A stretch of DNA of 63,875 nt, filler included, from Rozella allomycis CSF55 (Eukaryota), in assembly GCA_000442015.1 (NCBI GenBank). It is 9 parts of 9 records of this genome, joined end to end, with 100 filler letters (N's around TTAATTAATTAA, not from the genome) between each part and the next. Parts side by side here need not be neighbours in the genome. Positions count along the whole stretch, not along the records: positions 5,595 to 20,314 come from KE561177.1; 8 more parts are not named here. One strand, written 5' to 3'. The notes below the pieces were generated by a model. It was not told the DNA's origin. It saw nothing but the letters and a program-made list of their open reading frames with translations, and did not search any database. Position 1 is the first letter of the stretch. Each line of letters starts with the position of its first letter. The translations under genes and the position numbers were made by a program. This document shows positions 4,010 through 63,875 of the stretch, one piece after another.

Positions 4010-5250
4010 AGAGCCTTCTTCAACTAAAAAGTCGACTTTTGAAAAATAGATAATTTTGTAAAATTCGTAAATAAACCCTTGCTTAAAGACAAATTTCCTA
4101 CTTTTTTGAAAAGTAGCTACCCTAGCTACTTTTTTTAGGAAATATCTACTTTTGCAATTTATGAGCTCAATGTTAAAAATGAAGGAAAAAATTGCACAGT
4201 ATTGCTATTTCAATTACCACTAGTGCTGCCTTTACAATTTTGGCCACTGTTGCAAGTGATGGAAGATCACATCGTTCCAAAGTAAAACGTAAATTTTCCA
4301 CCCGAATAACGCCTTGGCATGTTGTCCAACGTCATGTGGAATATTTTGAAGGTTGGTTTGTCGACAGATTAAGATGTAATAGGCGCTCGTTTGACAAAAT
4401 TGTGGATGAAATTGAAAAAAGATTGGAGAAAAACATGTTTTCCAATCGGAAAAAAGGCATATTTTAAAATTCGGGAACATGTTGCTGCTACCTCGCACTA
4501 TTTGGCGCATGGGGGTACAGTTACATCTAGTGCTAAAATCTTTGGAATGAGTCAAGCAGTGGCTTTTCGTGCAATCAGAAATGTAATATCGGTACTTCTT
4601 TCAATAAACAACAAATGGATTAAAATTCCTAACAGTAACGCTGAATGGAGATCTATTATGAATGACTTTGAGAAAATTGCAGGTTTAAATGGTGTTTGTG
4701 GCGCAGTCGATGGTACCTTAATAGAAATAAATCGGCCCCTGGACTTTGAAGGTTGGTATTGTCGAAAAGGTTACCCAGCAAAAATATTATCTTACTCCGT
4801 TCGCCCTGGATCTTTTAATTATCAGGGTATATTTAATATGTCAAATGTTGGATCACATATAGCAAAAATTATACCTAAAGGATGTTGCCGATACTGGTTA
4901 TAAGTTAACAGAAAACGTTATTTACTCCATATCCCATCACGGACGCGATGTTATGGGAACACAGAAACTTTAAATATTTGCATTCCAAAACTAGAATTAT
5001 TGTTGAAGCTGCAATAGGGATTATAAAAAATCGTTTTCGCGTTTTAAAATCACCGCTAAAACAAAAAAGTACTTCCAAAATGTCGAGTATAGTTCATTCG
5101 TGTTTTGTTTTGCACAATATGATAATGGATTTTAAAGATTCGGCAATGGATACTGACATATTAGAATATGATGGGGAAGATAATGTTGAAAGGAATTCAG
5201 AAGCAGCTGTGACTGGCGCAGCACGACGAGATATAATAATGCGCTAATTG
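4010..5250 (+). mobile_element. PIF/Harbinger (HARBI1-like) DDE transposase pseudogene
   Basis: GAVDGTLIEINRP..WYCRKG (D1), ADTGY near 4888 (D2), HSKTRIIVEAAIGIIKNRFRVL..CFVLHN (E); upstream palindromes aaaagtcgactttt and aaaagtagcta-ccc-tagctactttt; left boundary approximate. Confidence 0.88.
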
Positions 5251-10299: not shown

Positions 10300-10444
10300 T
10301 ACACAAGCTAATCTGGGATGCAATCTTCAAAGGGTATGTTTTTGTAACGAACTCATGGATGGAAATAATTTTACTGCTTTATCATTTTTACTAAATAAAT
10401 TTTAACCCTGGCTTTAAAAGTTTTCGTTTCTATCTAGTTCAACA
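10300..10444 (+). repeat. Short LTR, copy 1 (5' end about 8 nt truncated)
   Basis: Aligns with 49982-50135 and with the reverse complement of 63811-63875; ends ...TTCAACA; contains AATAAA. Confidence 0.8.
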
Positions 10445-10456
10445 CAAAAACATAGA

Positions 10457-11330
10457 ATGAAGTTTGAAACTCCCAAGCCGCTAGCAAAGTATGGAAAGGC
10501 CGCTTTTTACGCTCACAAGCTCAACATTCTTGACCTCTTTGGTGCTCAAACATCCGGAAGTTCCTGTTTTACTAGACGTTTCAGCTGCTCCCGTTCCGCC
10601 AAAAGCTAACGACAAGGACTATGCTAACAAGCTGCAAGTTTAACAAAAGAGTTGCCAAATCTATGGTCATGTTAAATCTATGAACAACGAATCGCGGGAG
10701 AAGTATGAAAAATATTTAAAAGATCACGAAAAAGCGTTCTCTTTGATGAAATATTGTTTTCGGTCTCCCGAAAACAATATGGTTTTCTTACGTGATAATG
10801 CTCCTAAGACTGTTCGTGAAGCCTTTAGTTTGTATGAGAGTGTATTTAAGGCAAAAGAATTATCTGGAAATGATTTAATCAGTTGGTTAAGAGACTAATG
10901 CAAATCACATTAAAGAAAAATGGGCGCGATGAACCTGGTGAAATCCATAAATTTGTTCAAAATTTGGTTTCTAACGCCGGCATATATCGAGAGCTTATGA
11001 AAGAAGATATAGTTGAAACTGACTTGCAAGGGCAGGCTCTAACTGACAGAGAAAAACAGTTAGTTAATTCGTTTATACATGAAACAAATAAAACATGGGC
11101 GATTTTATATTATTCAAGTCAATATTTAGAATCTACGCCTGATACACCATATTTTCATGAAACTACATCTAAATTAACGACTTCTGGATACAAACATTTT
11201 AAATCTGTACAAGAGTTCCTTGACCACCTTGTAAATTTATCTCAATCGTTACTATCGTCTGTTAGAAAAATGCCTGTAGTAAATGAAAATAATGTTGAAG
11301 ATAAAAATCCTTCTGCAGCAGTGCTAATAA
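10457..11330 (+). mobile_element. Copia-like gag pseudogene directly after the short LTR
   Basis: MKFETPKPLAKYGKAAF..KL.ILD.FG, then DHEKAFSLM..KTVREAFSLYESVF..LISWLRD, resembling the copia gag pattern; second copy at 50148-50390. Confidence 0.6.
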
Positions 11331-12226
11331 TTGGTATTAGGAATTCTATATTTTTAGTTAAGGATTGTGAACAGGAGCGACGTTGAGGAGGTCTGCATCC
11401 CCGACTTTATTTTCATGTAATTTAATGAGACGCACTAATCGCATAGGCACGTGGCATGGGTCATTCCTCTGCCTGCCTAAGACCTGCAAAAGTTCCTCAC
11501 GCCAAGATTTGGTATAGTTGCCCCCCGTTAACGTCTAGCAAGGATTAATTACCAAATGGGACAAATAGTGTTAAAGATTTATAAAGTAGAGAACATGCAA
11601 AGAAATCATTATAGTTATGTTTGAGACAGGAACTCTACAATGGTTACTCAAAAAGAAAATATCATGCTTACTCTGAAACCCCCTTCTGGTTCTCCATGCT
11701 GTAATTACCGTGTTTGCGACAAACACGGGTGGGATATCAGGTTTGGTCGGATTTAATTTTGCCTTTTTGACTGCATTTGAAGCAGTTGCCAAGTACATTG
11801 CTTATGGCTGTGGTCACCAAAAAACCAAAAAGGCATATGAAGATGTTGAAATTGACTACCAAAGTTTATTAGTCGTCATTGGATAAGGACATAAAGTCGG
11901 TAATCATTTATACTGTAAATCAAAAGAAATGGACGGACTTTACGAGAGTTATAAAGATAAAAAATAAAGATACTTAAGATGGTTCAATCAAGACATATAT
12001 TTTAGAGATTAGTTTTGATACTTCGTTATACCACGCCAAAATGACGTTATGTGTTTGTTGTGCAAAGAGAGCGTACGCAACGTACCGACTCTGAACAAAA
12101 CATTGGAAAATATATTTAACACCTATTGGAAAGCAAACAGCTTGTTTCAGCTGTTTTTGTCGATCTAGACTTAGTCCTTATCTTCTGTGTCCTACGTGAT
12201 ATAATAAATATATCATATAAACTTGT

Positions 12227-20053: not shown

Positions 20054-20414
20054 CACCATACCTTCCAATTTGCGCTAGCGAGGATAACTATCGGACCCGC
20101 ATAGTCTTGTCGAAGGTATTCACGGTTTCATTAACAATGCCATCCCAAGCAACAATGATCAACTGCAAAAATAGAAAGAAGTAAACGTTAAAGGTAATTT
20201 ATTAAATTTATGCTGAGTATATACANGGTATTCACGGTTTCATTAACAATGCCATCCCAAGCAACAATGATCAACTGCAAAAATAGAAAGAAGTAAACGT
20301 TAAAGGTAATTTATNNNNNNNNNNNNNNNNNNNNNNNNNNNNNNNNNNNNNNNNNNNNTTAATTAATTAANNNNNNNNNNNNNNNNNNNNNNNNNNNNNN
20401 NNNNNNNNNNNNNN

Positions 20415-33543: not shown

Positions 33544-34379
33544 GAATATTTCATAAAATAAATTATTTGATCGTCTTTAATTTAAATATTACTATATATT
33601 AACGGACAATGGAACATTAAGGTACAAAGGTTCGCAAAAAATACCCGAATCTGGACAGTTTTGTTAATAGTTTCTTAGAGCAATTTTGAAAGCGCATTTT
33701 ATTAAAAGTTTAATATTGAGCTATAACTCTATCTTAATTTTTGACCCTGGAAGTGGCAACTCGTCATGCCATCAAAGNTGGGGAATCTTATTTATAATTT
33801 TTTGGATGTGGCGAGCCTTACCTTCATCAACATTATTTGTTTCGTCGAAACCATCAACTGTTGGGCACGACGGTATTCCAACTAGTGAGTGCATGTAGTT
33901 ATTGAGAGTCTCCCAATCAGTGTAAACTTCTTTGCTGACAGGTGGANTTTGTGTCGTCGAAACCATTAACTGTTGGGCACAACGGTATTTCAACAAGTGA
34001 GTGCATGTAGTTATTGACAGTCGTCCAATCCCTATAAATCTTTTTACTGACAGGTGGCAATGTCATGAAGTGTGACCGGGTCCCTGGTACAAATATTTTT
34101 AGGTTGGCTTGGCCAACTAAGCCGCAGCTGAAACTCCCTGACATATATCTTAAGGTACTATCAGAAGTACTGAATACAATAATAACATAAGTCGATAAAA
34201 AGTTAATGAAAAATTAATGAGAACTTCAAATATGAAGTTAATACAACATCACTTCGATTTGTATATTATGTTGTCTTACAGTTAACCGGAGCACACACAA
34301 ATAACTAATATTGTATGGGTCTGTCACAATACCTATATCGAGCTGTTGCAAATGATGAAAACCTGGAGTTAGGAATTTT

Positions 34380-35570
34380 ATGACTTGGTTTATGGCAATA
34401 ACAACCNAGATTTTTCATTTATCAAAACTAGGCGAGGATAGCCCAAAAACGGAATCATACAATGAAAATATGACACACGAAATAAGTTTTTGTTATTCCA
34501 ACCCGCATCTGAAACGTACATACTTGGTTAATAAAGACGAGAAGGTGCTATCAGCAGTAAATATTTTAGCTCTGCGGTTTTTTCAAGAGTCCGCGTTAAA
34601 GAATTTCGAATTCTCAAACTTTGAATTGAGTATCGTCCCAACAGTAAGAAACGAGAGCGTGACCGTGGAACAGCTCACCCGCCTGAATGGAGGTGCAAAG
34701 CCTGTTGTTTTGGTTTCGCATAAAAATTCACACATGACCGCTGATTTGATTCAAGCGCGCCAAGATCTCCATGCTCGTGAGGTAATGGACACTGGCCATT
34801 CTGGCCGAGTTCTTCCAGATGTTCCAAGTGAATTACACAAAATTCCTGCATGGTTAAATGAAGCAAGAAAGATCATGGAGATTTGGAAGCATGAGTTGGA
34901 TATAAAGAATGTGGAAATATCGGAATGGAAAAAAGAGCTTAATCAAAAGAACATGGAACTAAAGCGAAAGAATGTTGAGATAGCACAATGGAAAAAAGAG
35001 CTTGATCAAAAGAACATGGAACTAGAGCGAAAGAACATGGAACTAGAGCGAAAGAATGTTGAGATAGCACAATGGAAAAAGGAAATTGATGAAGAGAATA
35101 AAGAAATAAAGGATTGGATGTTGAAGACGAATTTAGAAATTATGGAATGGAAACAGAAAGAAAATCAAAAGAACAAGTTACTTGCTCCTATTTATATTGG
35201 GTCTGCTCTTGAAAAATATTTGATCATTTATCTTGAACTGGACAAGAAAACACATTTTCATGACATGAATATAGGTGGTTTTCTAAAATATGCTAGTCAG
35301 GAGCAGCTGGATGAATTGGATAACGTTTTGAAAGAAAGGAAATCTTTTATTACTGTTGAAAACCTAATGTCTTATAAAAGCATCTGGGACGAAAGAAAAA
35401 GAAATTCAGTCTCGCGTGATCCGCCTTTCTTTAAAGAAGAAGTTACAAGGTCTATGTCAATCTTGGGAATTCAAGGCGATGAGGGATTAGAACAAATAGT
35501 TAATATCTTGTACAATGAAAAAGGGTTTTTGGAGGCACAATATTTCAATTGTGAGTATGACTCGTACTAA
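34380..35570 (+). CDS. Hypothetical coiled-coil protein with heptad tandem repeats
   Basis: 396-aa ORF; near-exact 21-nt and 63-nt repeats (KNMELER, KNVEIAQWKKE) at about 34900-35085; true start uncertain. Confidence 0.7.
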   Translation: MTWFMAITTXIFHLSKLGEDSPKTESYNENMTHEISFCYSNPHLKRTYLVNKDEKVLSAVNILALRFFQESALKNFEFSNFELSIVPTVRNESVTVEQLTRLNGGAKPVVLVSHKNSHMTADLIQARQDLHAREVMDTGHSGRVLPDVPSELHKIPAWLNEARKIMEIWKHELDIKNVEISEWKKELNQKNMELKRKNVEIAQWKKELDQKNMELERKNMELERKNVEIAQWKKEIDEENKEIKDWMLKTNLEIMEWKQKENQKNKLLAPIYIGSALEKYLIIYLELDKKTHFHDMNIGGFLKYASQEQLDELDNVLKERKSFITVENLMSYKSIWDERKRNSVSRDPPFFKEEVTRSMSILGIQGDEGLEQIVNILYNEKGFLEAQYFNCEYDSY

Positions 35571-41431: not shown

Positions 41432-42886
41432 GGGTCTGTTTCATGTTGCTACGTCTACGCCTCCGCTTTGAATTACGAAATTTATAGTTGCAAATATCTG
41501 TTTCATGTCCGGTTTATCTCTGCCCCGCTTTCATATATATTCGGACTCGCGAAAAACGAATTTATCATGATTTGAGGGCTTAACATAATAAAAAGGTTTA
41601 TAAACATTTAAGTAATATTCAATTTTTTGTTTTAATACATCCAAAGTATCTCCATTACAATTGTGAGCACTATGTTTGTGTAAGTAGAAAATTTTAAGCG
41701 TATTAATAAAATCATCCTTTCTTGCATCAAATATTTTGCGGCCTTTAAAATAAACTCAATAAATACAAAACAAACTAATTTTATGCAATTAANAAACTGA
41801 CTCATCTAGACGGAACAACTCCAGCCTAATATCCGTGTTAGCAACATCATTTCCCCCTGCACCCCTAACGAATTCGGGACTCCATCCGCGCCACCAATCG
41901 ACCTAGACCCCGGATAACTCTGTGAGTGCGCTTACTTGCCCTTGTCAAGAAGCAATGAACACTACGGTCTAATTGCAACTCAACAAAGCGTGCCTCTCCC
42001 GTATCCCCTTGAACAATATACTCCTCGTTGCCAGGTTTGCAGACTGTTGTTTCCACTAAAGGACAAATAAAATCACAAATCTTTAATACTCCTCATAAAA
42101 CAATATTTTATACAATAAAATTTGAATTTTCACTTTCACAAATATCTTCTTATTTTTATAAAGAAAAGAATAATCGACTTTTGAAATTACAAATTGAAAA
42201 AGGAGTAATTCTTGAGGATTAAAAATAAATGATATTTGAATTAGAAAAATACAAAACATAAGAACGAAATAGAAATAAATTATGAGTACAGAGCAAATGA
42301 TAATGAATATTGAAATTTGAAATTATGATTATAAATTGNGATTTTTATATAGAAGAGAAAAATCGACTTTTGAGATTACAAATTGAAAAAGGAGTTTCTT
42401 GAAGATTAAAAATAAATGATATTTGAATTAGAAAAATAGAAAACATAAGAACGAAAAAGAAATAAATTATGAGTGCAGAGCAAATGATAATGAATATTGA
42501 AATTTGAAATTATGATTAAAAATTCTAATGTATAAAAATTAAGATAGATGATAATTAATAATGGATAATAAAAAGAAAAACTTTGACANTGATGATAATT
42601 GATAATGGATAATAAAAAGAAAAACTCTGACATATTAAAGATTAAAAGAATTAAAGAAAACGGAGAACGAAATAAAAAATCATATCATCGTCTTGGTTCT
42701 AGAACACTTGAGGCGCAGGGAACAAAAGCCACCAAGATAAAAAATAGACTATCTTCAACGTGCACTATTTTGACCTTTTCAAGCAAAGCATCCCTCGTAC
42801 AACAAACCTATGTTATTCAAGTAAACTTACCGTTTGTTTNGTTCTGCAAGCGTCAAAGCAGAGACGGAGCAACATGAAACAGCCCC
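41432..42886. mobile_element. PIF/Harbinger-type element with 25-bp TIRs and TTA TSD
   Basis: TTA|gggtctgtttcatgttgctacgtct ... agacggagcaacatgaaacagcccc|TTA (23/25 match); the interior has single-n joins and a segment repeated at 47950-48301. Confidence 0.75.
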
Positions 42887-43729
42887 TTATCGGATGGACA
42901 GTCTATACAATCCGAGACATCAGTGTCAGTTTCCGTTCCCGTCCAGGCCTCGAGGTTGTGTTCATGCTGATCCTCATAATGAGACAATGATGTTAATGGA
43001 AAGGTTTGGTAAGCAAGATCTTCTTCTGTAACTTGAGTGGAGGAGTGAGTATGATACATTTCAGACAGGTTTTCAGTAATTTTTTCCGCTGCATACTTAC
43101 GTTCGTCAAATAAAAAATGGTTGGATTCCTTTTGGGTACAAATGACGTATCACGTTTAAAGAAACGGACACGTCAATACGCGTTGAAGCAGAACCAAGTC
43201 ATCGCACAGTGAGAAATTGTCATAAATATCAGGCACGGCAAGCGCGTTGTGGCGGGCACTATTTCAGAATTTCAGCAGTTAGCACCAATATCTGGCTTGA
43301 ATGATGAACCAATTAAGGAATGTGTATATCAAGCTGTCGATACCATTACCCACTGGAAGTTTTGTGGATGCTCCCGAGGCTATTTCTGAATTCTATGATT
43401 TGATAATGAAGTTTGATGAACTAAAAAAGCATTGTGATAAGATTTTTCGCAACAAGTTGACAATGCTTGCTGATAAAGCACCAATGATCTTAGATGCCAC
43501 GCGACAATTGATCACGATTGCCATTAAAACTTTGTAAACAGCAGCGTAGATGTCTTAAATGATTATTTCTCGTAATTGCTCTAATAGGTCTCGTAGGGAC
43601 ATAAAACAAAAAGACTGATTTTGTAATTAATGGAATCATTTCGATAAATTTAAAGTTGAAGCATTGGTAAACGTGAAGATCAGGGGAGCCAGGTATACGC
43701 ATATTTTTCCGCCAATCTTAACAACCATT

Positions 43730-44261
43730 GGGAATGCGCGACATTAACTTGCGCGCCAAAATTTGAATACGCAATTTCGAAAAGTACCAACTTGGGTGCC
43801 AAAATTTAATCCGAAATTTCGCAAAAAACAATATATTCATTCATTTGATATTTTACAGCGATATGTCGTACGATAAACGAGAAAGTGCTTACAAACTTTT
43901 TCCAGTATATACGTTCTTAAAAATACTCTTCCAAATGTTTTCTTGTGTTAGTGCCTTTCATTTTTAACATTTGTTTAACATTCTTTGATCTTTTTTTAAT
44001 AGAAGCTCGTAATCCATATCTAGCGCCCGAACGCCATGATATCCTGCCCATTCATCAACAATAACTTTTTTACCCATTCGTAATCTTTTTTTGTAATGAT
44101 TGGTGAGTGTCGCGGCGGTTCTGTCGGGCACAATTGAGTAAAAAGTGGAAGGTGTCATTGCCTTGTGTATTTCTCTCTATCCCACCAAAACTCCATAAGG
44201 CTTCCACCGCTCCGTCGATATCAAGAATGTTGGCCTTACCACCTTGTTGATGATTTGGCAC
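43730..44261 (-). mobile_element. Merlin/ISXO2-like (IS1595 family) transposase remnant
   Basis: WSFGGIERNT / VPDRTAATL..KKVIVDEWAGY / RKHLEEYF; two tandem aacttg.g.gccaaaattt subterminal-like repeats at about 43746-43821. Confidence 0.82.
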
Positions 44262-44639
44262 GTAAGTTTGAAAGTAATTGAATGGTTATTTCGCGGCAGA
44301 ACGATACTAATTTAATTCTCTTGCTGTGCACCCTGCAGTAGCCTTGGTGCTCCAATTGTAAATTAGTGATTTTTTATGACAAACTAGAATGTTCAAAGAA
44401 TGCTACATGTCTTGATGACAACCACCAACGATTCTGGAATTTCCATATTACGCCGTCTTGGCAATGGTGCTTTCATAAACAACATATGTCATTTTCTGAA
44501 ATACTCAAAATCCACAATGATTATATCTTATACTCAAAATCTACAGTGCATATCTCTTACCAAAAATACAATAATGAAACTGTTTCATTATTTAGAGTAA
44601 GTCACCAGCTGGAGCGCCAATTTTGTTTTTTACCAAAAT

Positions 44640-45405
44640 TACGGTTCTTTACAGTTAAGTGTGGATTACCGTAATTTACATAATACAAAAGTAAAAAATC
44701 GATACGACTTCCGCTCATTTCTGAACTTCGAAACGATTTTCATCTTCAAAGTTTATTACCAAATTGGGTTATATGGATGCATACAATTTAGTACGTGTTA
44801 ACGAGGAGAATCAATGGAGGACACTTGTTAGACCCCGTTATGGGCATTGTGAATACCGAGTCGTGCCTTTCGGCTCAACGAACGCTTCCGTGGTTTTCCA
44901 AAAAAAGATGCAAGAAATACTTAATGGCATAGGTGATGAATATACAATCATTTATCTTGGTGAAATTGTTATTTATGCAAAACATTTGACAGAACATCGA
45001 GTGAATTTGAGCAGGGTATTGGAACACTTACTAGAAACTAAACTTTACGTGAAGCTAGCAAATTGTTTATATGTAGTATTAAGTATTGATGCCTTTTTAC
45101 GTTATGCTATTACGTCCACAAACGCTCACACTTAATATAGATAAAACAATTTGTTATTCTTAAAATATTTTATTACGCGTAATGTTGCTAGCAGAATTGA
45201 GAAAAAGATTAAATCTTTATTATCTCGGAAGACTCCAAAGAAATGAAATAGTTCCAGCGATTAATGGTATTGCCAAAATTCAATGGAAAATCAATACCTG
45301 GCTATACTCGAATTTTGACTTCTTTAACTAATTTATTAACAAAGGATAGCAAATACATCTCGGATGCCGCTTGCGACGAAAGATTTTGTTATTTAAAAAA
45401 CAGTT
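44640..45405 (+). mobile_element. Ty3/gypsy RT remnant
   Basis: VDYRNL..KNRY, DAYNLVRV..YGHCEYRVVPFGSTNA..IYLGEIVIY. Confidence 0.9.
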
Positions 45406-46907
45406 TGTGAACGTCCATGTGTAATGAAATTTAACGCAGTGGTATCAAAATAAGGAATCTCATGACATCGTGTCCAAGCCTCTAACTAACACTATATATG
45501 AGAAATCCTTGTATTAATAAACGCTCGTTCTTTTTGATAGTCTTATATCTTTCCTACGTGTTCAGCATAATATGGATAATAATACTACCCCAAAAGAATC
45601 TGTCACCTACGCTGGCACTCTACTTCCAAAAGAGTACATACTGCACGGCCGCTCCAACTGGGACCATTTTCAATGGTTCTTTCCGCTATTCCTCTCAGAA
45701 CATGGATACTGGAACTCAACCATCAATAGTCCCACCACCTCCTGCAAGCCATTTACATTTACCAAGAACGGTCATTGTGAAACTACTGCCGACATTTAGA
45801 CGACATTACAAGAGGAATTCAATGGTTCTGATGTGAACGCCAAGATGAGATCTTTGAAAGACCTCATGGATCTAAGACCTATTTTGAATATTAAAACATC
45901 ATTACAAACATTTGATAGAGTGAAAAGAAGTTTCATTCCTGTCTTTGGAGACACCTATGGTCATCTTGTTGCACTTGTCTTTACTGAACGATTACCAACC
46001 GAGTACTGCATCCAACGTGCTCTTGCGTCTAACTCTACTATCCTCGACTTCAATGACCTCAAAGAACGCTTACTTACAAAATAGAAACGCTTACAACAAC
46101 TTTCACCTTCGTCCACTGAATTCGCTACCAAACAATCGTCCTCCCTTGCTGCGGTTACTTCAACTCTGTGTCCTCATAATCATGACTCATCCAAATGCTA
46201 GCATTGCTAACCTTCTGCTGCGCAATCGTTTAAAACTAGCAAAACTATGAATATTAACTTCTTACCGCTGTCCTCAACTTCAAATTAAGAAGAAGAAAAC
46301 CAAACTTAATGCTGTCACCTCTGATCTAACTTTTCGCATTGACTCTGGAGCCACTGACCACATCGTCACCAATAAAAAAGCCTTTTACTGCTACACCAAC
46401 TTTGTGTCATTGCCTAAGAACCTTAACATTCCTACCAAGGACGAGGTAACATCAATTTTGAAACTCCAACTCTCACCGTAGAATTTTGATAGTCCTGCCA
46501 ACTACTTCGAGGATAGCTGAAGTGGCCTACTTCAAGCTATAATCCGAAGANGTCCTCTAGGCGTACCAACTAAAGCATCAAGACCAGGCGAGGCAGTTCA
46601 TATTGATGTTTGCGGTCCCTTATCTTCTCTAACCTATCATGGATTCAAATATTTTATTACCTTTACTGATGATTATTCAAGATATGTAACAGTTCTTCTT
46701 CTTAAAGCAAATTCGGATGCGTTTGATGCATACCGACAATATTCAACAAGAGTTTTCAATCTTTTCGATCGTCATATTTCTTTTGCACATTTTGACAACG
46801 GTGCATTATTATTTAATCAAATGAAAGAACTTTGTTTACAAAATGGAACTCAAATTTAAACAACGACTTCTTATACACCTCAACAAAATGGAATAGCTGA
46901 AAGACTA
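45406..46907 (+). mobile_element. Ty1/copia element (putative ~160-bp LTR, gag, protease, integrase) inserted into the gypsy RT
   Basis: TG(T)GAAC...GTTCA(GCA) ends with TATA and AATAAA; SNWDHFQW gag, FRIDSGATDH, VHIDVCGP..FTDDYSRY, TPQQNGIAERL. Confidence 0.85.
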
Positions 46908-47838
46908 CCGTAATTCGAAAAAAAGTTGAGACTGCTGCGGAATTTTTACCCATGTCGTTTTCTTGTACATTTTGAAGAAACAAAAAATGTTATCAAATCA
47001 AGATGGCGAAATCAGTTTTATTAAGAGCAATATATTTTTGACTATTGTTGGGATTTCTAGAGGCACCAATGGGTGGAGTTGCTCCATTCATGAAACTGGT
47101 GGAATGGAGCTTCAGCTTGGTCAGATAATAGTATGCGAATTGGCTTATATAAGAAACGGTAACGCCTTATACTGGATTAATTTAGAGCGACCAGGAAAAT
47201 CAATAGAAAAGGTGGTAAAAATAAGAACTATATAGGAAGGAGAACTTTTATGTCACGTTAGATATTTGTCATCCCAACATGGATCTCATTTTGATCAATT
47301 GCATGGCAAATTTTTTCAAGTCGTAGAAATTAATCGTGGCAGTTGGGAATCAAGGAAAGAATGCGGAACAGCGAAATGTGTCCTACTGAAATGAGAAGCT
47401 AATAAAATGAATTTTATTTTTTATTTTTTAATACCTTAATAATTAGGTAAATCCACATTTTCTCCATGAGTTCTGTATGGTTTCAGCCGATATTCTCTGT
47501 GATGCATTCACTACCCGGTTGACCATTATCTCTCTTTCTTGAGCTGGTGTAAGACGGTTCAAATTGTTACTACGAATGGCCAAGTTTTTTCCACCCAGTC
47601 CTGACGACAGTAATCCTTGAATGGTTTGTTGCAACCAACATCCAATGGCTGCAACACTGAAGTCATATTGCTGGGAAGGAAAAGAGCTGTTATATTCTTT
47701 TCATTTAACAATGCCGCTACCTCTGGAGTCTTATGAGCACTAAAATTGTCCATGATGAGAAGACATCGACGATTGTTTGCATATGGCAAAAGCACTTTGT
47801 TTATCCAATTAAGCATCTCAAATGTGTCAACATAAGCT
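46908..47838 (-). mobile_element. pogo-like (DDE_1) transposon, one end at TA|CCGTA
   Basis: LLIMDNFSAHKT..LFLPSNMTSVLQPLDVGCNKPFK..IQNSWRKCG; the copia integrase frame breaks exactly at TA 46906-46907. Confidence 0.85.
46987..47394 (+). pseudogene. 135-codon ORF with one internal stop inside the pogo element
   Basis: A single frame runs ..IVGISRGTNGWSCSIHETGG..KIRTI*EGELLCHVRYL..HGKFFQVVE..CGTAKCVLLK*, followed by AATAAA. Confidence 0.55.
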
Positions 47839-47948
47839 NNNNNNNNNNNNNNNNNNNNNNNNNNNNNNNNNNNNNNNNNNNNNNNNNNNNNNNNNNNNNN
47901 NNNNNNNNNNNNNNNNNNNNNNNNNNNNNNNNNNNNNNNNNNNNNNNN
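47839..47948. other. Assembly gap (110 N)
   Basis: N run without the linker motif. Confidence 0.97.
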
Positions 47949-48419
47949 ATCTCCAACTCAACAAAGCGTGCCTCTCCTGTATCCCCTTGAACAATATATT
48001 CCTCCTTGCCAGGCTGGCAGACCTGTTGTTTCCACTAAAGGACAAAACAAATCACAAATCTTAAATACTCTTCCTAAAAACAATATTTTATACAATAAAA
48101 TTTGAATTTTCACTGTCACAAATATCTTCTTATTTTTATATAGAAAAATCGACTTTTGAAATTACAAATTGAAAAAGGAGTTTCTTGAAGATTAAAAATA
48201 AATGATATTTGAATTAGAAAAATAGAAAACATAAGAACGAAAAAGAAATAAATTATGAGTGCAGAGCAAATGATAATGAATATTGAAATTTGAAATTATG
48301 ANNNNNNNNNNNNNNNNNNNNNNNNNNNNNNNNNNNNNNNNNNNNTTAATTAATTAANNNNNNNNNNNNNNNNNNNNNNNNNNNNNNNNNNNNNNNNNNN
48401 NCTTCTCATTTATTAAATC

Positions 48420-49981
48420 TTCTTTGGAATCTATTCTGACATGTTAATGCATTACCTATTGTGAGATTTATTCTTTCGACTAATCCATCGCTTGATAGTT
48501 GATAGGCGGAAACAGTGTGATGATGTGCTTGCCATTCTCAGAAGAAACAGTCGACGGTCTAGGATAACGACAAAGCCATTCAGTGTCAAATTTTCTCGCT
48601 GTCTCCTGTGCCGTCAAAGTTTTCAAGGGATTTAATTCGACCCATCTTGTACAAACATCAACACAAACCAATATATAACTGAATCATTCTTCGCCTTCTT
48701 CAACTAACTCAACGTTCTCATCAGTGTGCTTCAAGGGTCCAAAAATATCTATCGCGACTTGTGCAACGGAACATTCGACAAAATAACAACATCGGTCTCC
48801 AATTTTCTATATTGTTTGTTTGATGGTTTTGCTCGTCGACAGTCTTCGCAATTTGCACAGAAGTGTGAAATACCATTGAACATGCTTTTCCACTAAACAA
48901 AAAGCGTCAATGTATAATATAATTTATTGCTGCCTGGATGAATTAAGACATCATAAAGAAAATCGCGGACCTTATATGTGTGATTAGCAGGGATAATGGC
49001 GACACCTGTCGTTGTGCGCATGACCTCGTCTGTCAATCTTGGACTTGACGTGACTTGTATATATTCTCATCAGTTTTCTACATATTAAGATAACAACATC
49101 TTGACAACCAATCAGCTTCTACTCCAGCAATGTGATTGAAAGGAACATTGTATTAATCAATTATAAGTTTCCAACGTTGAACTATTCCTAATTTTGATCC
49201 CGTAAGAAATTCTAAGTTTGAATGATCAGTAGAAACCCCTATTTCACACCCGAAAATCATTGTTTTCATATCGTGAAGTGCCCATACTATGGCCAGACAT
49301 TCGTGTTCGGTAACAGTATAATAATGTTGAGCAGGATTCAGTTCTCGGCCAAAGAGGTGTAATGGGCGACCATTACACCTCTTTAGCCCAAGACGTACCG
49401 CCCCAACGGCATACTCACTCGCGTCATAGTAAAGATCAAACGGCTTGGAGTAATCAGGGTGCCAATTTCCCTTTATGTATTAGTTCATCAAAAATTTTAG
49501 TAGATTTGACATATCATCGTTCCAGTGAAAGTTGCTTCCTATCTTGGTCATATTGGTAAACATGGCGGTTTGCGCGCTTTAATTGGGAATCATGTTTCGA
49601 TTAATATTGAGAAATCCTAGTATTGATCTGAGTTCCTTCACACTGCTTGGCATTGATACATTTTTGGCAACATTGTTAATTCTTTCGGCGAGTGATAGAT
49701 TCGGTGGAAATGGTCATACCAAAATATTCCAGTTTAAATTCAAAAAACGTTGACTTTTCCTGACTAATTGGCGTCCTTGAGTTTCTGAAATACCTTATAC
49801 CAACTGTAAATGCATCAATTGCTCTTCGGGATTTTCGCTCACGACTATTCATGTACACGCGGACAAATTAAAACTCCGACATAAGGTCAGACATAATTTT
49901 CTGAAAGATCATCGGCGCTGGCGCAATTCCAAATGGGAATCGAAAAAAATCATATTGACCAAAGGGTAGGACAAATTTAGT
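48420..49981 (-). mobile_element. Degenerate Ty3/gypsy pol (RT, RNase H, integrase)
   Basis: PFGQY..FPFGIAPAP, YYTVTEHECLAIV, STDHSNL, HPGSNKL, VDVCTRWVEL..WLCRYPRP. Confidence 0.9.
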
Positions 49982-50135
49982 TGTTGAGTTACACAAGCTA
50001 ATCTTGGATGCAATCATCAAAGGTTATGTTTTTGAAACGAAATCATAGATGGAGATTACTTTTATTGCTTTATCATTTTTACTAAATAAATTTTAACCCT
50101 GGCTCTAAAAGTTTTCGTTTCTATCTAGTTCAACA
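49982..50135 (+). repeat. Short LTR, copy 2 (complete, 154 bp), followed by a gag fragment to 50390
   Basis: TGTTGA...TCAACA terminal inverted ends; the gypsy RT frame stops at its 5' edge. Confidence 0.85.
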
Positions 50136-51102
50136 CAGAAACACAGAATAAAGTTTGAAACTCCCAAGCCGTTAGCAAAGTATGGAAAGGCCGCCTTTCG
50201 CGGTCATAAGCTCAAAATTCTTGACTTCTTTGGTGCCGATGGACTTCGATATTTTTTACGTGACGATTTCAAACCTCTGGAAGTTCCTGTTTTACTAGAC
50301 GTTCCCGCTGCCGTTCCGCCAAAAGCTAACGACAAGGACTACGCTAACAGGCTGCAAGTTTACCAAAAGAGTTGCCAAATCTATGGTCATNNNNNNNNNN
50401 NNNNNNNNNNNNNNNNNNNNNNNNNNNNNNNNNNTTAATTAATTAANNNNNNNNNNNNNNNNNNNNNNNNNNNNNNNNNNNNNNNNNNNNTTATCGTAAC
50501 AGTACAAAATTCGGAAATATTCGAAATTCGAAAATATTCGGAAAAACCTACTTTTTTCCAATTTAGTTTTTGATTTAATCATTTTCATTTAATCTGCTCT
50601 GTGATTTTTCAATTGATATTTGTTGCCAACTTGCCATATATTCTCTAATTTCTTAACTCTTTCTTTTTTCAACTCCAAAACATCCGCCACCTATATCTCA
50701 ACAGCTACCTTTACTATATGGACTGAAAAATATTACATGGTATATCGAGTGTTCAACTTGGCCCTTCCAAACTTCCGCCACCTATATCTCAACAGCTACC
50801 TTTACTANTGATATTTTGGGGGTTTCTTCAACATGTATTTATATGAACTTTCAGGAATAGTCACTAGAAGCAGTATTATGTATTTGAAATTCAAAAANAG
50901 TCCGGGTCTCATATTACCCGTAGGGCTCCGCAACAAACAAACACAAATACTAGAATGAAAGAAAGTTAGAATGTTCTAGTTGACAAATGTTTGTAGAACA
51001 AATACCTTTGGTATTTGTTTGTTTTGTGNATATAACACATTTTTCAGATTATTGTCAAAAATGATTTTATTAACTCATTTTGTTTTATCCATATGTTTTA
51101 GT

Positions 51103-58438: not shown

Positions 58439-58520
58439 TGATTGGAGAGGGGTTCGAACCCTCGCCTCCGAAGAGATAGGTACCTGAAACCTACGCCTTA
58501 GACCACTCGGCCATCCAACC
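58439..58520 (-). tRNA. tRNA-Leu(CAG)
   Basis: Full cloverleaf: GGTTGGA/TCCAATC acceptor, TAGGT-TTCAGGT-ACCTA anticodon arm, long variable arm CTC-TTCG-GAG, GGTTCGAACCC. Confidence 0.95.
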
Positions 58521-58527
58521 TTAAAAA

Positions 58528-58552
58528 TGCGAACATCGTGGATCGAACACGA

Positions 58553-58594
<42 letters not shown>

Positions 58595-58600
58595 GTTCGC
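58528..58600 (-). tRNA. tRNA-Phe(GAA)
   Basis: GCGAACA/TGTTCGC acceptor, TCAGA-CTGAAGA-TCTGA anticodon arm, followed by TTTTT. Confidence 0.96.
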
Positions 58601-61384: not shown

Positions 61385-62437
61385 TTGCTTTTGCCTATAA
61401 TACATGCTTCACATAGTTGTGGCGAAGGCATAGTTGAATTTGTTAATGTAGCCACATCTTTATAGTTCAGGTGATTTAGCTTTAGATGCATAGTTTGAAG
61501 TTTCTTTTAAGTGTGATCTAAAGTTTGACTTTGAGATTTACTTTGTGATTGACTAAGGAAGGAAGATATATTTCTTGGTTGAAGACTAATTTGGTACAGT
61601 CCATTTTGTTTCGCCCCTTCCATGACAATTCTATTTTGTTTGATAAATTCAGGTATTCCGGTAGTTTCTTTAATGACATAGCAACAATTTTTGTAGAAAA
61701 GGACTGATAGCTGATTGCTGCAGAGACGGCTTATAGACATGAGACGGAGATGAGCATCAGGAACATACATACAATCATTTAAGGTAACCGTTGATGTTTC
61801 ATTTTCACAGCAGACCTTCCCAATACCAGGTGAATGAGCAAACTGACCATTGGCAACTTTAATAGATGATGGTAAACTGTTGTAGGTATTGAAGTCTTCT
61901 TTATTGAAGGTAAGATGATCTGTAGCACCCGAATCTAGAGTCCAATTCCTAGCACCTTGAGCGACATTTGCTTGCTTGGAAGAGTTGCAGTGAATAGAGC
62001 CCGTTCGATGAGTAAATCTAAGGTTTGCTTTTTGACATGGTTCACAAACAGGCTTCTTACTTGGATCACAAACCCAGCATTTTCCGATTGGGCGGCGATG
62101 CTCACATTTTCTTGCGACAACAGCAGCAGTGATTGTTGGCTTATTTTCTTGTTTTTGGCTTTCCCGGAGAAGACGATCTTCGATATGATTAATTGTAAGA
62201 GCTTTCATTTTTATATCAGGGTTAGATGATTCAGCTTCTTGTTCTAGAATAACACGGACATGGTTAACTGAGCTTGGAAGAGTAAGAAGAGTAATCATGG
62301 CAGTAAGTTGATCGATGTCAAGAGTTTGGGATGCACTGGCTGCTTTTAGCTGTTTGATGATTGACCGGATGCGATTGAAATCAGAGGAAAAATCTTCAGT
62401 AAACTCGAAGCTAGTGAGGTCACGAAGGCAACGTAAT
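61385..62437 (-). mobile_element. Ty1/copia gag-protease-pre-integrase fragment
   Basis: LLTLPSS..LLRE, Cys/His knuckles, WTLDSGATDHL, NGLY, HLKLNHLN..CEAC. Confidence 0.92.
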
Positions 62438-62677
62438 NNNNNNNNNNNNNNNNNNNNNNNNNNNNNNNNNNNNNNNNNNNNTTAATTAATTAANNNNNNN
62501 NNNNNNNNNNNNNNNNNNNNNNNNNNNNNNNNNNNNNAAAATTTCCAAACCAATTCCGTCTTTATTTAGATGATCTAACTATCGCACGGAATCGTCAATG
62601 TTCATGCGGTGGCTACGCCTGAATGGCCAATATCTTTAATTTTAAATTCATAAATAAATTTGATATCATTAGGTTTA

Positions 62678-63499: not shown

Positions 63500-63790
63500 T
63501 TCTTTAACAATAGCTACTTTGCAAAGGGAAACGAAACACAAATGTTCCATTTTCTACAATTTTGCTTTGCTCCATAAAGGCTCTTCAACAACAGACACAC
63601 TTTGTTTGGTTGTTCCGTATCAATAAATCCTTCTGGTTGGGTCATATATAAAACTGTGTCCATTTCTGAATTCAAATATACTGTTTTGACATCTAATTGA
63701 GCTGTGAACATTTCTTCNACTGTTTTGACATCTAATTGAGCTGTGAACATTTCTTCTGAACAATAGTTGACATAAAAATTCGCACACTTG
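63500..63790 (-). mobile_element. Ty1/copia RT fragment
   Basis: QLDVKTVYLNS..YMTQPEGF..VCLLLKSLYGAKQ. Confidence 0.9.
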
Positions 63791-63810
63791 TCATATTTAT
63801 CATTGGTGAG

Positions 63811-63875
63811 TGTTGAACTAGATAAACCGAAAAATTTTTAGAGCCAGGGTTAAAATTTATTTAGTAAAAATGATG
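63811..63875 (-). repeat. Short LTR, copy 3 (3' half, reverse orientation)
   Basis: Reverse complement matches 10380-10444 and 50071-50135; similarity stops just after ...TTCAACA. Confidence 0.8.

What the first reader, a model, noticed from the sequence alone, without database searches (positions are those of the whole stretch)
10300..10459. Copia-like element with a 154-bp LTR, no tRNA PBS and an 11-nt self-complementary primer site (possible self-priming)
Seen: three copies define an LTR TGTTGA...TCAACA (49982-50135 complete; 10300-10444; 63811-63875 reverse). The LTR is followed by neither a TGG-type nor a GGTTATG-type PBS, and the gag ATG (10457) comes only 12 nt later. The PBS position, ACAAAAACATA (10444-10454), is the exact reverse complement of TATGTTTTTGT inside the LTR (10335-10345), upstream of its AATAAA. 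Copy 2 keeps 8/10 Watson-Crick pairs plus one G-U. Known: S. pombe Tf1 and related gypsy-group elements prime reverse transcription with the 5' end of their own RNA annealed at the PBS. Inference: the gag looks copia-like, so this could be a self-priming copia lineage, which I do not recognise as described.
Basis: partly seen in the sequence, partly recalled or inferred. Interest (0 to 1): 0.78.

Follow-up and report, generated by a model that had tools for sequence, protein, structure and literature searches.

The report
Short-LTR retrotransposon with possible self-primer
These are decayed copies of a real retrotransposon with a very short (154-base) terminal repeat and no tRNA primer site; it may start copying itself with its own RNA, a mechanism already known or proposed for other elements, and this is not proven here.

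Summary
The 154-bp LTR (TGTTGA...TCAACA) is real. Contigs of four public runs end or diverge at both boundaries, with several different flanks.

The 11-nt complementarity between LTR nt 44-54 and the bases after the LTR is exact only in copy 1. Such a match is rare by chance (P about 0.0015). Copy 2 has three uncompensated changes. The most abundant contig that covers the site seems to keep 9 contiguous pairs (P about 0.01).

Two results are new:
- The two boxes close a long predicted RNA hairpin (z -4.4 in copy 1, -2.9 in copy 2).
- Contigs from two runs carry a fold-back junction exactly at the pairing.

Both fit Tf1-like self-priming, but neither proves it. There is no transcript start, no covariation and no host tRNA set.

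The copia label is weak. The gag matches no Pfam family. The only link to a copia-type RT is one LTR-RT junction, which could be a nested insertion.

Self-priming has already been predicted for the plant copia TAR lineage (PMC6317226), so the idea is not new. The nearest named protein is from Rozella allomycis.

Verdict: plausible new member of a known kind, of moderate interest.

The parts
49982..50135 (+). Complete 154-bp LTR (copy 2), TGTTGA...TCAACA, with AATAAA at 50085-50090 (LTR nt 104-109)
   Evidence: Both boundaries are marked by loose ends with different flanks in contigs of runs X1, X2, X5 and X6.
50025..50035 (+). LTR box of copy 2 (TATGTTTTTGA, LTR nt 44-54). The last A is private to copy 2; every contig counted at 50035 reads T.
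   Evidence: table 3, row 50035: A>T makes up the whole depth in all four runs.
50135..50145 (+). Post-LTR primer-site candidate of copy 2 (ACAGAAACACA). The G at 50138 is private to copy 2.
   Evidence: table 3, row 50138: G>A in every contig counted there (15, 7, 4 and 2 contigs in X1, X2, X5 and X6).
50136..50390 (+). Open frame for the gag N-terminus in copy 2 (85 aa, no ATG), cut by an assembly gap at 50391
   Evidence: It is 90% identical to P0006.
10300..10444 (+). LTR of copy 1, lacking the first 8 nt, with AATAAA at 10394-10399
   Evidence: The same truncated junction is seen in run X5 (loose end before 49990).
10335..10345 (+). LTR box of copy 1 (TATGTTTTTGT); the putative self-primer if transcription starts here
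10444..10454 (+). Primer-site candidate of copy 1 (ACAAAAACATA), the exact reverse complement of the box. Its first A is the last base of the LTR.
10457..11383 (+). Degraded gag-like reading frame of copy 1. The ATG is at 10457. A 32-nt deletion shifts the frame near 10550, stops follow, and the longest open piece is 10874-11383.
   Evidence: (joint 50236>50269). No Pfam family. No pol domain follows up to 17000.
63811..63875 (-). 3' part of the LTR (copy 3), cut by the window end
63517..63810 (-). Fragment of a copia-type RT (Pfam RVT_2, profile positions 47-135) placed directly after the LTR of copy 3, with no primer site or gag between. It contains a 37-nt duplication flanking the N at 63718, which looks like an assembly artefact.
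   Evidence: (E 7.3e-17). The same junction is in a 190-nt contig of run X1 (loose end behind 50136).

Best explanation
The window holds three decayed pieces of one LTR-retrotransposon family with a 154-bp LTR. The host is most likely Rozella allomycis or a close relative.

The family has no tRNA-type primer binding site. The most likely mechanism (inferred, not shown) is Tf1-like self-priming:
1. Transcription starts at or within about 2 nt of LTR nt 44. That gives U3 of about 43 nt, R from nt 44 to a poly(A) site after the AATAAA at nt 104-109, and a short U5.
2. The 5' end of the RNA (UAUGUUUUUGU, or at least UGUUUUUGU) folds back onto ACAAAAACA(U/C)A, which begins with the last base of the LTR. 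A long R-U5 hairpin helps bring the two together.
3. RNase H cuts behind the duplex, and the freed 9-11-nt RNA primes minus-strand DNA.

Whether the element is copia-type or gypsy-type is open. The copies in the window are dead.
For: Shown:
- The LTR boundaries are real and the family is repeated. Summed contig depth over the LTR is thousands, against 3.5 to about 1900 on the upstream flank.
- There is no TGG or GGTTATG after the LTR. Only 12 nt separate the LTR from the gag ATG, so there is little room for a longer PBS.
- The 11-nt exact complement in copy 1 starts at the LTR's last base. P is about 0.0013-0.0017 for 11 or more, and 0.010-0.015 for 9 or more.
- Every contig counted at 50035 and 50138 reads the copy-1 letter, so the box TATGTTTTTGT and at least ACAAAAACA are the common family state.
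- The predicted RNA from box to primer site folds into one long hairpin closed by the box-primer site duplex. Copy 1: -26.6 kcal/mol against -13.8 +/- 2.9, z -4.43, 0 of 200 shuffles as good. Copy 2: z -2.87, 2 of 200. The inner hairpin without the duplex gives z -2.38 (5 of 200) and -2.71 (2 of 200).
- Contigs in runs X2 and X6 read LTR end + ACAAAAACA and then continue as TAACCTTTGAAGATTG.., which is the reverse complement of the LTR just upstream of the box (loose ends behind 50143). That loose end maps to the minus strand at 10317-10336 and 50007-50026 with 2 mismatches; 0 of 100 shuffles gave two matches.

Inference: a plus-strand strong-stop DNA ending in the primer-site copy, or one that copied a longer self-primer, would give exactly this fold-back product.

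Literature:
- Tf1 uses the first 11 nt of its RNA in this way (PMC7175516, passages).
- A complement of 10 bp or more starting 0-5 bp after the 5' LTR is the published criterion for predicted self-priming. Copy 1 meets it (PMC6317226, methods section).
Against: - There is no transcript start. No RNA run holding the stretch was listed, so the requirement that the box is the RNA 5' end is untested.
- U3 would be only 43 nt and shows no obvious TATA (reading).
- An RNA starting at nt 44 would carry a 16-codon upstream ORF (10355-10405) before gag.
- No covariation was seen. All three differences of copy 2 in the 22 paired positions weaken the pairing. Otherwise the sites hardly vary, which says nothing either way.
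- The deepest contig seems to carry C at 50144. That leaves 9 contiguous pairs, below the 10-bp published criterion and Tf1's 11. In a self-primed element the primer site is recopied from the primer each cycle, so a common mismatch is unexpected unless the primer is only 9 nt.
- TGTTTTTGT is a common word here: 9 matches in the window against 2.4 expected.
- The fold-back junction could come from host replication or from library preparation, because a strong hairpin in a very deep repeat favours such chimeras. Its depth was not reported.
- The host tRNA set could not be searched (no genome held). Only 2 tRNAs lie in the window, and their best complement to the 35 nt around the LTR end (from 3 nt inside the LTR) is 6 nt, far from the LTR end.
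Confidence: 0.42

Rival explanations
1. The complementarity is chance in an A/T-rich, low-complexity context. The element uses another primer that could not be identified here: an internal tRNA fragment, another cellular RNA, or an unknown mode like the one left open for fungal GalEa elements.
For: - Only 9 contiguous pairs seem common to the family, with P about 0.01-0.015.
- The word TGTTTTTGT is over-represented in the window (9 matches against 2.4 expected).
- Copy 2 shows no compensation.
- Copia elements with non-canonical priming sites and no accepted model exist. Fungal GalEa have a conserved hairpin site, and FunCo1 has a PBS matching an internal tRNA-Lys region (PMC5445492, passages). 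Skipper elements are another case (PMC5006619, passage).
- The host tRNA set was not available.
Against: - The complement starts exactly at the LTR's last base, which is where a self-primer site should be.
- The intervening RNA adds its own helices.
- A fold-back junction uses exactly this pairing.
- A run of five U is unusual in a tRNA (general knowledge, not tested).
- The two tRNAs in the window do not match.
Confidence: 0.33
2. The element is not copia-type. It is a Ty3/gypsy element of the Tf1/sushi kind, where self-priming is the rule. The RVT_2 fragment next to copy 3 belongs to an older copia element into which this LTR was inserted.
For: - The gag matches no copia gag family.
- No pol domain is joined to either gag-bearing copy.
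- The window is a mosaic of gypsy-type pieces (RVT_1, RT_RNaseH, rve) and copia-type pieces (RVT_2, gag_pre-integrs, Pol_BBD), so nested insertions are likely.
- The C-terminal part of P0003, a gene model that joins this gag to other sequence, has its only weak window match in the rve frame of a gypsy-order element (46764-46904, E 0.58). It also has a weak match to a retroviral integrase chain (3dlr_A, E 0.47). Neither is significant.
- Self-priming is best documented in the Tf1/sushi group, and is also proposed for Tcn1 of Cryptococcus.
Against: - The LTR-RVT_2 junction of copy 3 has LTR and RT in the same orientation. It is also present in an independent contig.
- No gypsy-type domain is linked to this LTR either.
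Confidence: 0.4
3. The long LTR hairpin, including the box-primer site stem, serves another purpose: masking the 5' poly(A) signal, packaging or dimerisation. Or it is only a fold-back-prone DNA structure. The pairing then has nothing to do with priming.
For: - AAUAAA sits at the top of the predicted hairpin.
- The inner hairpin is mildly better than shuffles on its own.
- Leader hairpins with such roles are known from retroviruses (general knowledge).
Against: It leaves the element without any primer site, although only 12 nt lie between the LTR and the ATG.
Confidence: 0.12

Closest known systems
Tf1/Tf2 of Schizosaccharomyces pombe and the Tf1/sushi group (Ty3/gypsy chromoviruses); Tcn1 of Cryptococcus, proposed
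   Same: There is no tRNA PBS. A short site (11 nt in Tf1) directly after the 5' LTR is complementary to a sequence inside the LTR. A predicted RNA structure brings the two together.
   Different: In Tf1 the complement is shown to be the first 11 nt of the RNA and RNase H cleavage is shown; here neither is known. The only RT next to this LTR is copia-type. The common family state may have only 9 contiguous pairs. The LTR is very short (154 bp), with a putative U3 of 43 nt.
Plant Ty1/copia TAR lineage (including Houba and Osr-1), predicted self-priming (Neumann et al. 2019, PMC6317226)
   Same: These are copia-type elements without a tRNA PBS. Their post-LTR bases are complementary to a stretch in the 5' LTR. 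The prediction is computational only, as it is here. Copy 1 meets their criterion of 10 bp or more.
   Different: That lineage is in plants. The host here is apparently a cryptomycete. No RT phylogeny could be made here, so relatedness is unknown. Copy 2 does not meet the criterion, and the dominant variant probably does not. The supplementary files with the TAR primer sites were not looked at.
Fungal GalEa copia elements with a Conserved Hairpin Site in place of a PBS (Donnart et al. 2017, PMC5445492)
   Same: These are fungal copia elements that lack a tRNA PBS. They have a conserved motif that includes the final A of the 5' LTR, and a hairpin at the PBS position.
   Different: The GalEa motif is a 9-bp palindrome (CTGATCAGT or CTAATTAGT, palindromic when the LTR's final A is included) that pairs with a sequence just downstream. 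The authors found no complement in the LTR. Here the motif is not palindromic and its partner lies inside the LTR.

Membership tests
Tf1-type self-priming LTR retrotransposons | The site directly after the 5' LTR is complementary to a sequence within the LTR, and no tRNA PBS is present | tested here: met
   Copy 1 is exact over 11 of 11, starting at the last LTR base. Copy 2 has 8 Watson-Crick pairs, 1 G-U and 2 mismatches. The dominant contig seems to have 9 contiguous pairs.
Tf1-type self-priming LTR retrotransposons | [quoted passage not shown] | not testable with these tools
   No RNA run holding the stretch was listed. Contigs cannot show RNA ends.
Tf1-type self-priming LTR retrotransposons | An RNA structure supports the primer-PBS duplex (U5-IR-like helices) | tested here: inconclusive
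   The predicted hairpin has z -4.43 (copy 1) and -2.87 (copy 2). The inner part alone gives -2.38 and -2.71. This is a prediction from two sequences, with no covariation.
Tf1-type self-priming LTR retrotransposons | RNase H cut behind the duplex releases the primer | not testable with these tools
   This needs biochemistry or cDNA end mapping.
Tf1/sushi clade (Ty3/gypsy) | Pol order PR-RT-RH-INT with a gypsy-type RT | tested here: inconclusive
   No pol is attached to the gag-bearing copies. The only adjacent RT is RVT_2, and that may be a nested insertion.
Ty1/copia (Pseudoviridae) | RVT_2-type RT, with integrase before the RT | tested here: inconclusive
   The copy 3 LTR is followed by RVT_2 profile positions 47-135 in the same orientation, and the same junction is in an X1 contig. 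No full-length copy was found in any collection.
Ty1/copia (Pseudoviridae) | Gag of a recognised copia gag family | tested here: not met
   No Pfam family matched copy 2's N-terminal 85 aa, the 170-aa ORF of copy 1, P0002 or P0003 at E up to 10. A 60-aa piece of copy 1 gave only an unrelated sub-threshold hit (Pro_sub2, E 0.038, 14.7 bits against a cut-off of 25). The protein atlas gave no usable hit.
Plant copia TAR lineage (predicted self-priming) | Perfect complement of 10 bp or more between the 5' LTR and a region starting 0-5 bp after it (criterion of PMC6317226) | tested here: inconclusive
   Copy 1 meets it (10 bp from offset 0, plus the LTR's last base). Copy 2 does not: its best complement is 6 nt, elsewhere. 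The dominant variant probably has 8 bp after the LTR plus the LTR's last base.
Plant copia TAR lineage (predicted self-priming) | RT, RH and INT cluster with TAR in a phylogeny | not tested
   No RT can be assigned to the family with confidence.
Fungal GalEa (Conserved Hairpin Site) | A 9-bp sequence after the LTR that is palindromic when the LTR's final A is included | tested here: not met
   A+CAAAAACAT is not a palindrome. The motif description comes from PMC5445492.

The most novel reading that the evidence does not exclude
A copia-type retrotransposon lineage of an early-diverging fungus (Cryptomycota) evolved Tf1-like self-priming independently. It would work with a minimal 154-bp LTR (U3 about 43 nt) and a primer of only 9-11 nt. 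The fold-back junction seen in two runs would then be a by-product of its plus-strand strong-stop DNA, either integrated or extrachromosomal. That would make it a direct DNA footprint of the primer-primer site pairing.
Probability: 0.18. Interest if true: 0.55.

Novelty: new member of a known kind. Interest (0 to 1): 0.35.

Why it matters
If true, self-priming of reverse transcription would extend to an LTR element of a cryptomycete, beyond the Tf1/sushi gypsy group and the plant copia TAR lineage. That would argue that this escape from tRNA primers arose several times. It would also give a very compact LTR (154 bp) for dissecting the minimal promoter, R and U5 functions. The fold-back junction, if it comes from reverse transcription, could be used to detect self-priming from genomic reads alone. 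As it stands this is a computational lead on dead copies.

Tried and rejected
- Whole genome: none is held for this window. All genomic copies, a full-length element and the host tRNA set were therefore out of reach.
- More copies from public collections all failed. A 25-nt LTR pattern found nothing in viral contigs. A 22-nt LTR pattern found nothing in metagenome contigs. The gag N-terminus found nothing in metagenome contigs: 278 pattern matches, none confirmed.
- Protein relatives were few.
  - The 170-aa gag ORF against 1.84 billion representatives gave 5 hits. Three are real (P0001-P0003). The two long repetitive proteins I judge spurious.
  - Searches for longer proteins found none with the gag C-terminal part and none with the C-terminal part of P0003.
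  - The N-terminal part found one longer protein, P0006. It is a chimeric gene model and has no pol.
- Protein atlas: no usable hit.
- Structure of the 170-aa ORF from a 4-row alignment: mean pLDDT 42, all helices. It is too poor for a fold search, so none was run.
- Rfam on 49800-50390: only two sub-threshold chance matches.
- No RNA holder was listed for the stretch, so expression and the transcript start could not be examined.
- Earlier notes of this scan: none on this genome and none relevant.
- Literature search for Rozella LTR elements: no paper specific to them among the 15 listed.
- Rejected idea: the fold-back contig as a simple nested insertion of one LTR into an inverted LTR. That would need the 10 bases after the LTR to match the internal sequence by coincidence.
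- Rejected idea: a GalEa-type palindromic site. The sequence is not palindromic.

Full report
**What is in the sequence**

The window is an A/T-rich (34.7% G+C) eukaryotic draft scaffold with 840 N in many small gaps. No whole genome is held for it.

- Copy 2 is complete (49982-50135; 154 bp; TGTTGA...TCAACA).
- Copy 1 (10300-10444) lacks the first 8 nt.
- Copy 3 is on the minus strand at 63875-63811 and is cut by the window end.

Copies 1 and 2 stay alike past the LTR, 84% over 404 aligned columns. The likeness ends at 10670 in copy 1 and at an assembly gap at 50391 in copy 2. Copy 3 diverges from the other two right after ..TCAACAC.

**Independent support for the LTR**

I laid contigs of four public runs on 49900-50390.
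- Loose ends with different sequences begin at 49981/49982.
- Others begin at or next to the LTR end: 50135, 50136, and 50128 in a variant copy that still ends ..TCAACA. So both LTR ends are true repeat boundaries.
- Summed contig depth rises from 3.5 to about 1900 on the upstream flank to thousands or tens of thousands over the LTR and the gag start. These sums are not copy numbers, but the family is clearly repeated.
- The truncated 5' end of copy 1 and the LTR-RT junction of copy 3 both recur in the contigs, so they are not artefacts of this one assembly.

**The coding part**

Copy 2 has an open frame of 85 aa after the LTR but no ATG (ATA instead). Copy 1 has the ATG at 10457, then a 32-nt deletion and stops, and a longest open piece of 170 aa at 10874-11383.
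- No Pfam family matches copy 2's N-terminal 85 aa, the 170-aa ORF, P0002 or P0003, even at E up to 10. A 60-aa piece of copy 1 gave only an unrelated sub-threshold hit.
- Among 1.84 billion representative proteins the 170-aa piece has three real relatives: P0001 at 97%, P0003 at 76% and P0002 at 42% identity.
- The N-terminal piece has one longer relative, P0006, at 90% identity. A source names it a hypothetical protein of Rozella allomycis CSF55. It begins MKFETPKPL, so the ATG exists in at least one other copy. It then runs into unrelated sequence.
- No pol domain follows copy 1 up to 17000.

The only link to a copia-type enzyme is copy 3. There the LTR is followed at once, in the same orientation, by a piece of RVT_2 (profile positions 47-135, E 7.3e-17). 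That could be an internally deleted element. It could equally be an LTR inserted into an older copia element, because the window is a mosaic of gypsy-type and copia-type fragments. 'Copia-like' is therefore possible, not shown.

**The complementarity**

In copy 1, TATGTTTTTGT (10335-10345, LTR nt 44-54) is the exact reverse complement of ACAAAAACATA (10444-10454), whose first base is the last base of the LTR. I asked how often the longest perfect complement between the LTR and a segment starting 0-6 nt from the LTR's last base reaches a given length.
- 11 nt or more: 0.00165 of 20000 dinucleotide shuffles of the LTR, and 0.0013 of 19474 random window 21-mers.
- 9 nt or more: 0.015 and 0.010.

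In copy 2 the same positions give 8 Watson-Crick pairs, one G-U and two mismatches. Its best perfect complement is 6 nt, at another place.

The contigs help to sort this out.
- At 50035 and 50138 every contig counted there reads the copy-1 letter. Two of copy 2's three differences are therefore private decay.
- At 50144 (C in copy 2, T in copy 1) no other letter is listed. The deepest contig across the site (X5, 92 nt, depth 3056.5) therefore seems to read C.
- The common state would then be 9 contiguous pairs (TGTTTTTGT/ACAAAAACA), an A-C mismatch, and one more pair.
- Five table rows were hidden and differences near contig ends are not listed, so this is an inference.
- No compensatory change was seen anywhere. 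The sites hardly vary, which is neutral evidence.
- The 9-mer is also a common word in this window (9 matches against 2.4 expected).

**New observations that bear on the mechanism**

First, the RNA from the box to the primer site is predicted to form one long hairpin. It consists of the 11-bp duplex, a 5-bp helix (10349-10353 with 10435-10439) and a 10-bp helix (10357-10366 with 10424-10433).
- Copy 1: -26.6 kcal/mol against -13.8 +/- 2.9 for shuffles, z -4.43, 0 of 200 shuffles as good.
- Copy 2: z -2.87, 2 of 200.
- Without the closing duplex the inner part still gives z -2.38 (5 of 200) and -2.71 (2 of 200).
- Two private changes of copy 2 in the 10-11-bp helix (50047, 50054) swap A-U and G-U pairs and keep the pairing. 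That is weak support at best.

Second, contigs in two runs (X2 and X6) follow the LTR to ...ACAAAAACA (50143) and then continue TAACCTTTGAAGATTG.... This is the reverse complement of the LTR just upstream of the box. It maps to the minus strand at 10317-10336 and 50007-50026 with 2 mismatches, and 0 of 100 shuffles gave two matches. The junction is a fold-back exactly at the box-primer site pairing.

My inference is that a plus-strand strong-stop DNA ending in the primer-site copy could snap back on the box and be extended. One that copied a self-primer longer than the box would give the same product directly.

The same product could also come from host replication slipping at the strongest inverted microhomology. 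It could come from polymerase fold-back during library preparation on a very deep repeat. Its depth was not reported. I give it modest weight.

**Most likely mechanism**

Tf1-like self-priming, with these inferred parts: U3 about nt 1-43, R from nt 44 to a site after AATAAA (nt 104-109), a short U5, and a 9-11-nt primer site.

Points against:
- No transcript start is known.
- U3 would be tiny and shows no evident TATA.
- A 16-codon upstream ORF (10355-10405) would sit in the leader.
- The common variant has a mismatch, which a primer site recopied from its primer each cycle should not keep, unless the primer is only 9 nt.
- The host tRNA set was not checked. Only two tRNAs lie in the window (Leu-CAG and Phe-GAA), and their best complement to the 35 nt around the LTR end is 6 nt, far from the LTR end.

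I put self-priming at about 0.4, an unidentified other primer with chance complementarity at about 0.33, and another role for the hairpin at about 0.12. The copia-or-gypsy question is separate and roughly even.

**Comparison with what is known**

- Tf1 uses the first 11 nt of its RNA, cut off by RNase H (PMC7175516, passages).
- Self-priming is the rule in the Tf1/sushi gypsy group and is proposed for Tcn1.
Neumann et al. 2019 (PMC6317226; passages and the methods section read) predict it for the plant TAR lineage and cite an earlier proposal for Houba and Osr-1. Their criterion is a complement of 10 bp or more starting 0-5 bp after the 5' LTR. Copy 1 meets it and copy 2 does not. I did not open their supplementary tables.
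- Fungal GalEa copia elements lack a PBS and carry a palindromic hairpin site that includes the LTR's final A (PMC5445492, passages). The motif here is not palindromic and its partner is in the LTR, so this is not that system.
- A search for papers on Rozella LTR elements listed nothing specific. Two searches on self-priming and copia listed no report from a cryptomycete. The library does not hold most subscription journals.

**Verdict**

If the mechanism holds, this is a new member of a known kind (self-priming LTR retrotransposons) in a new host group, seen only in dead copies. Interest is moderate.

Noticed in passing
window 58439-58600 (-): tRNA-Phe(GAA) and tRNA-Leu(CAG) genes lie head to tail with only 7 nt between them, so they may be one dicistronic unit.
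   Followed up: partly
window 63681-63755; 20115-20314: Exact duplications flank single N's: 37 nt on each side of the N at 63718, and 88 nt at 100% identity on each side of the N at 20226. They look like scaffolding artefacts. Many gaps also have the form 44 N + 12 bases + 44 N. The first duplication inflates the RT reading frame of copy 3.
   Followed up: partly
window 41976-48301: Direct repeats about 5.98 kb apart (41976-42515 and 47954-48301, 93-99% identical in pieces) enclose RVT_1 (44725-45132) and rve (46521-46856). This looks like a gypsy-order LTR element. There is a 187-189-nt internal duplication in the left repeat, and its ends are hidden by gaps. Its primer site was not determined.
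   Followed up: partly
window 61510-62481 (-): A 324-aa open frame has a CX2C knuckle-like motif (CWVC), LDSGATDH (motifs read by eye) and a Pol_BBD domain (E 1.2e-17). It is a piece of another, typical copia-type gag-protease, unrelated in sequence to the gag of the finding.
   Followed up: partly
window 4909-5244 (+): Fragment of a PIF/Harbinger-type DDE transposase (DDE_Tnp_4, E 1.8e-13).
   Followed up: no
window 34359-35567 (+): A 403-aa open frame contains 63-nt tandem repeats with a lysine/glutamate-rich repeat (KKELDQKNMELERKN..). No Pfam family matched.
   Followed up: no
window 49900-49981: The flank upstream of copy 2 is itself a repeat. Contigs about 87% identical to it stop matching at 49982, and at least one (run X5) runs on from there with unrelated sequence in place of the LTR. 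Together with RT_RNaseH at 49156-49479 (-), this suggests copy 2 sits inside a gypsy-type element.
   Followed up: partly
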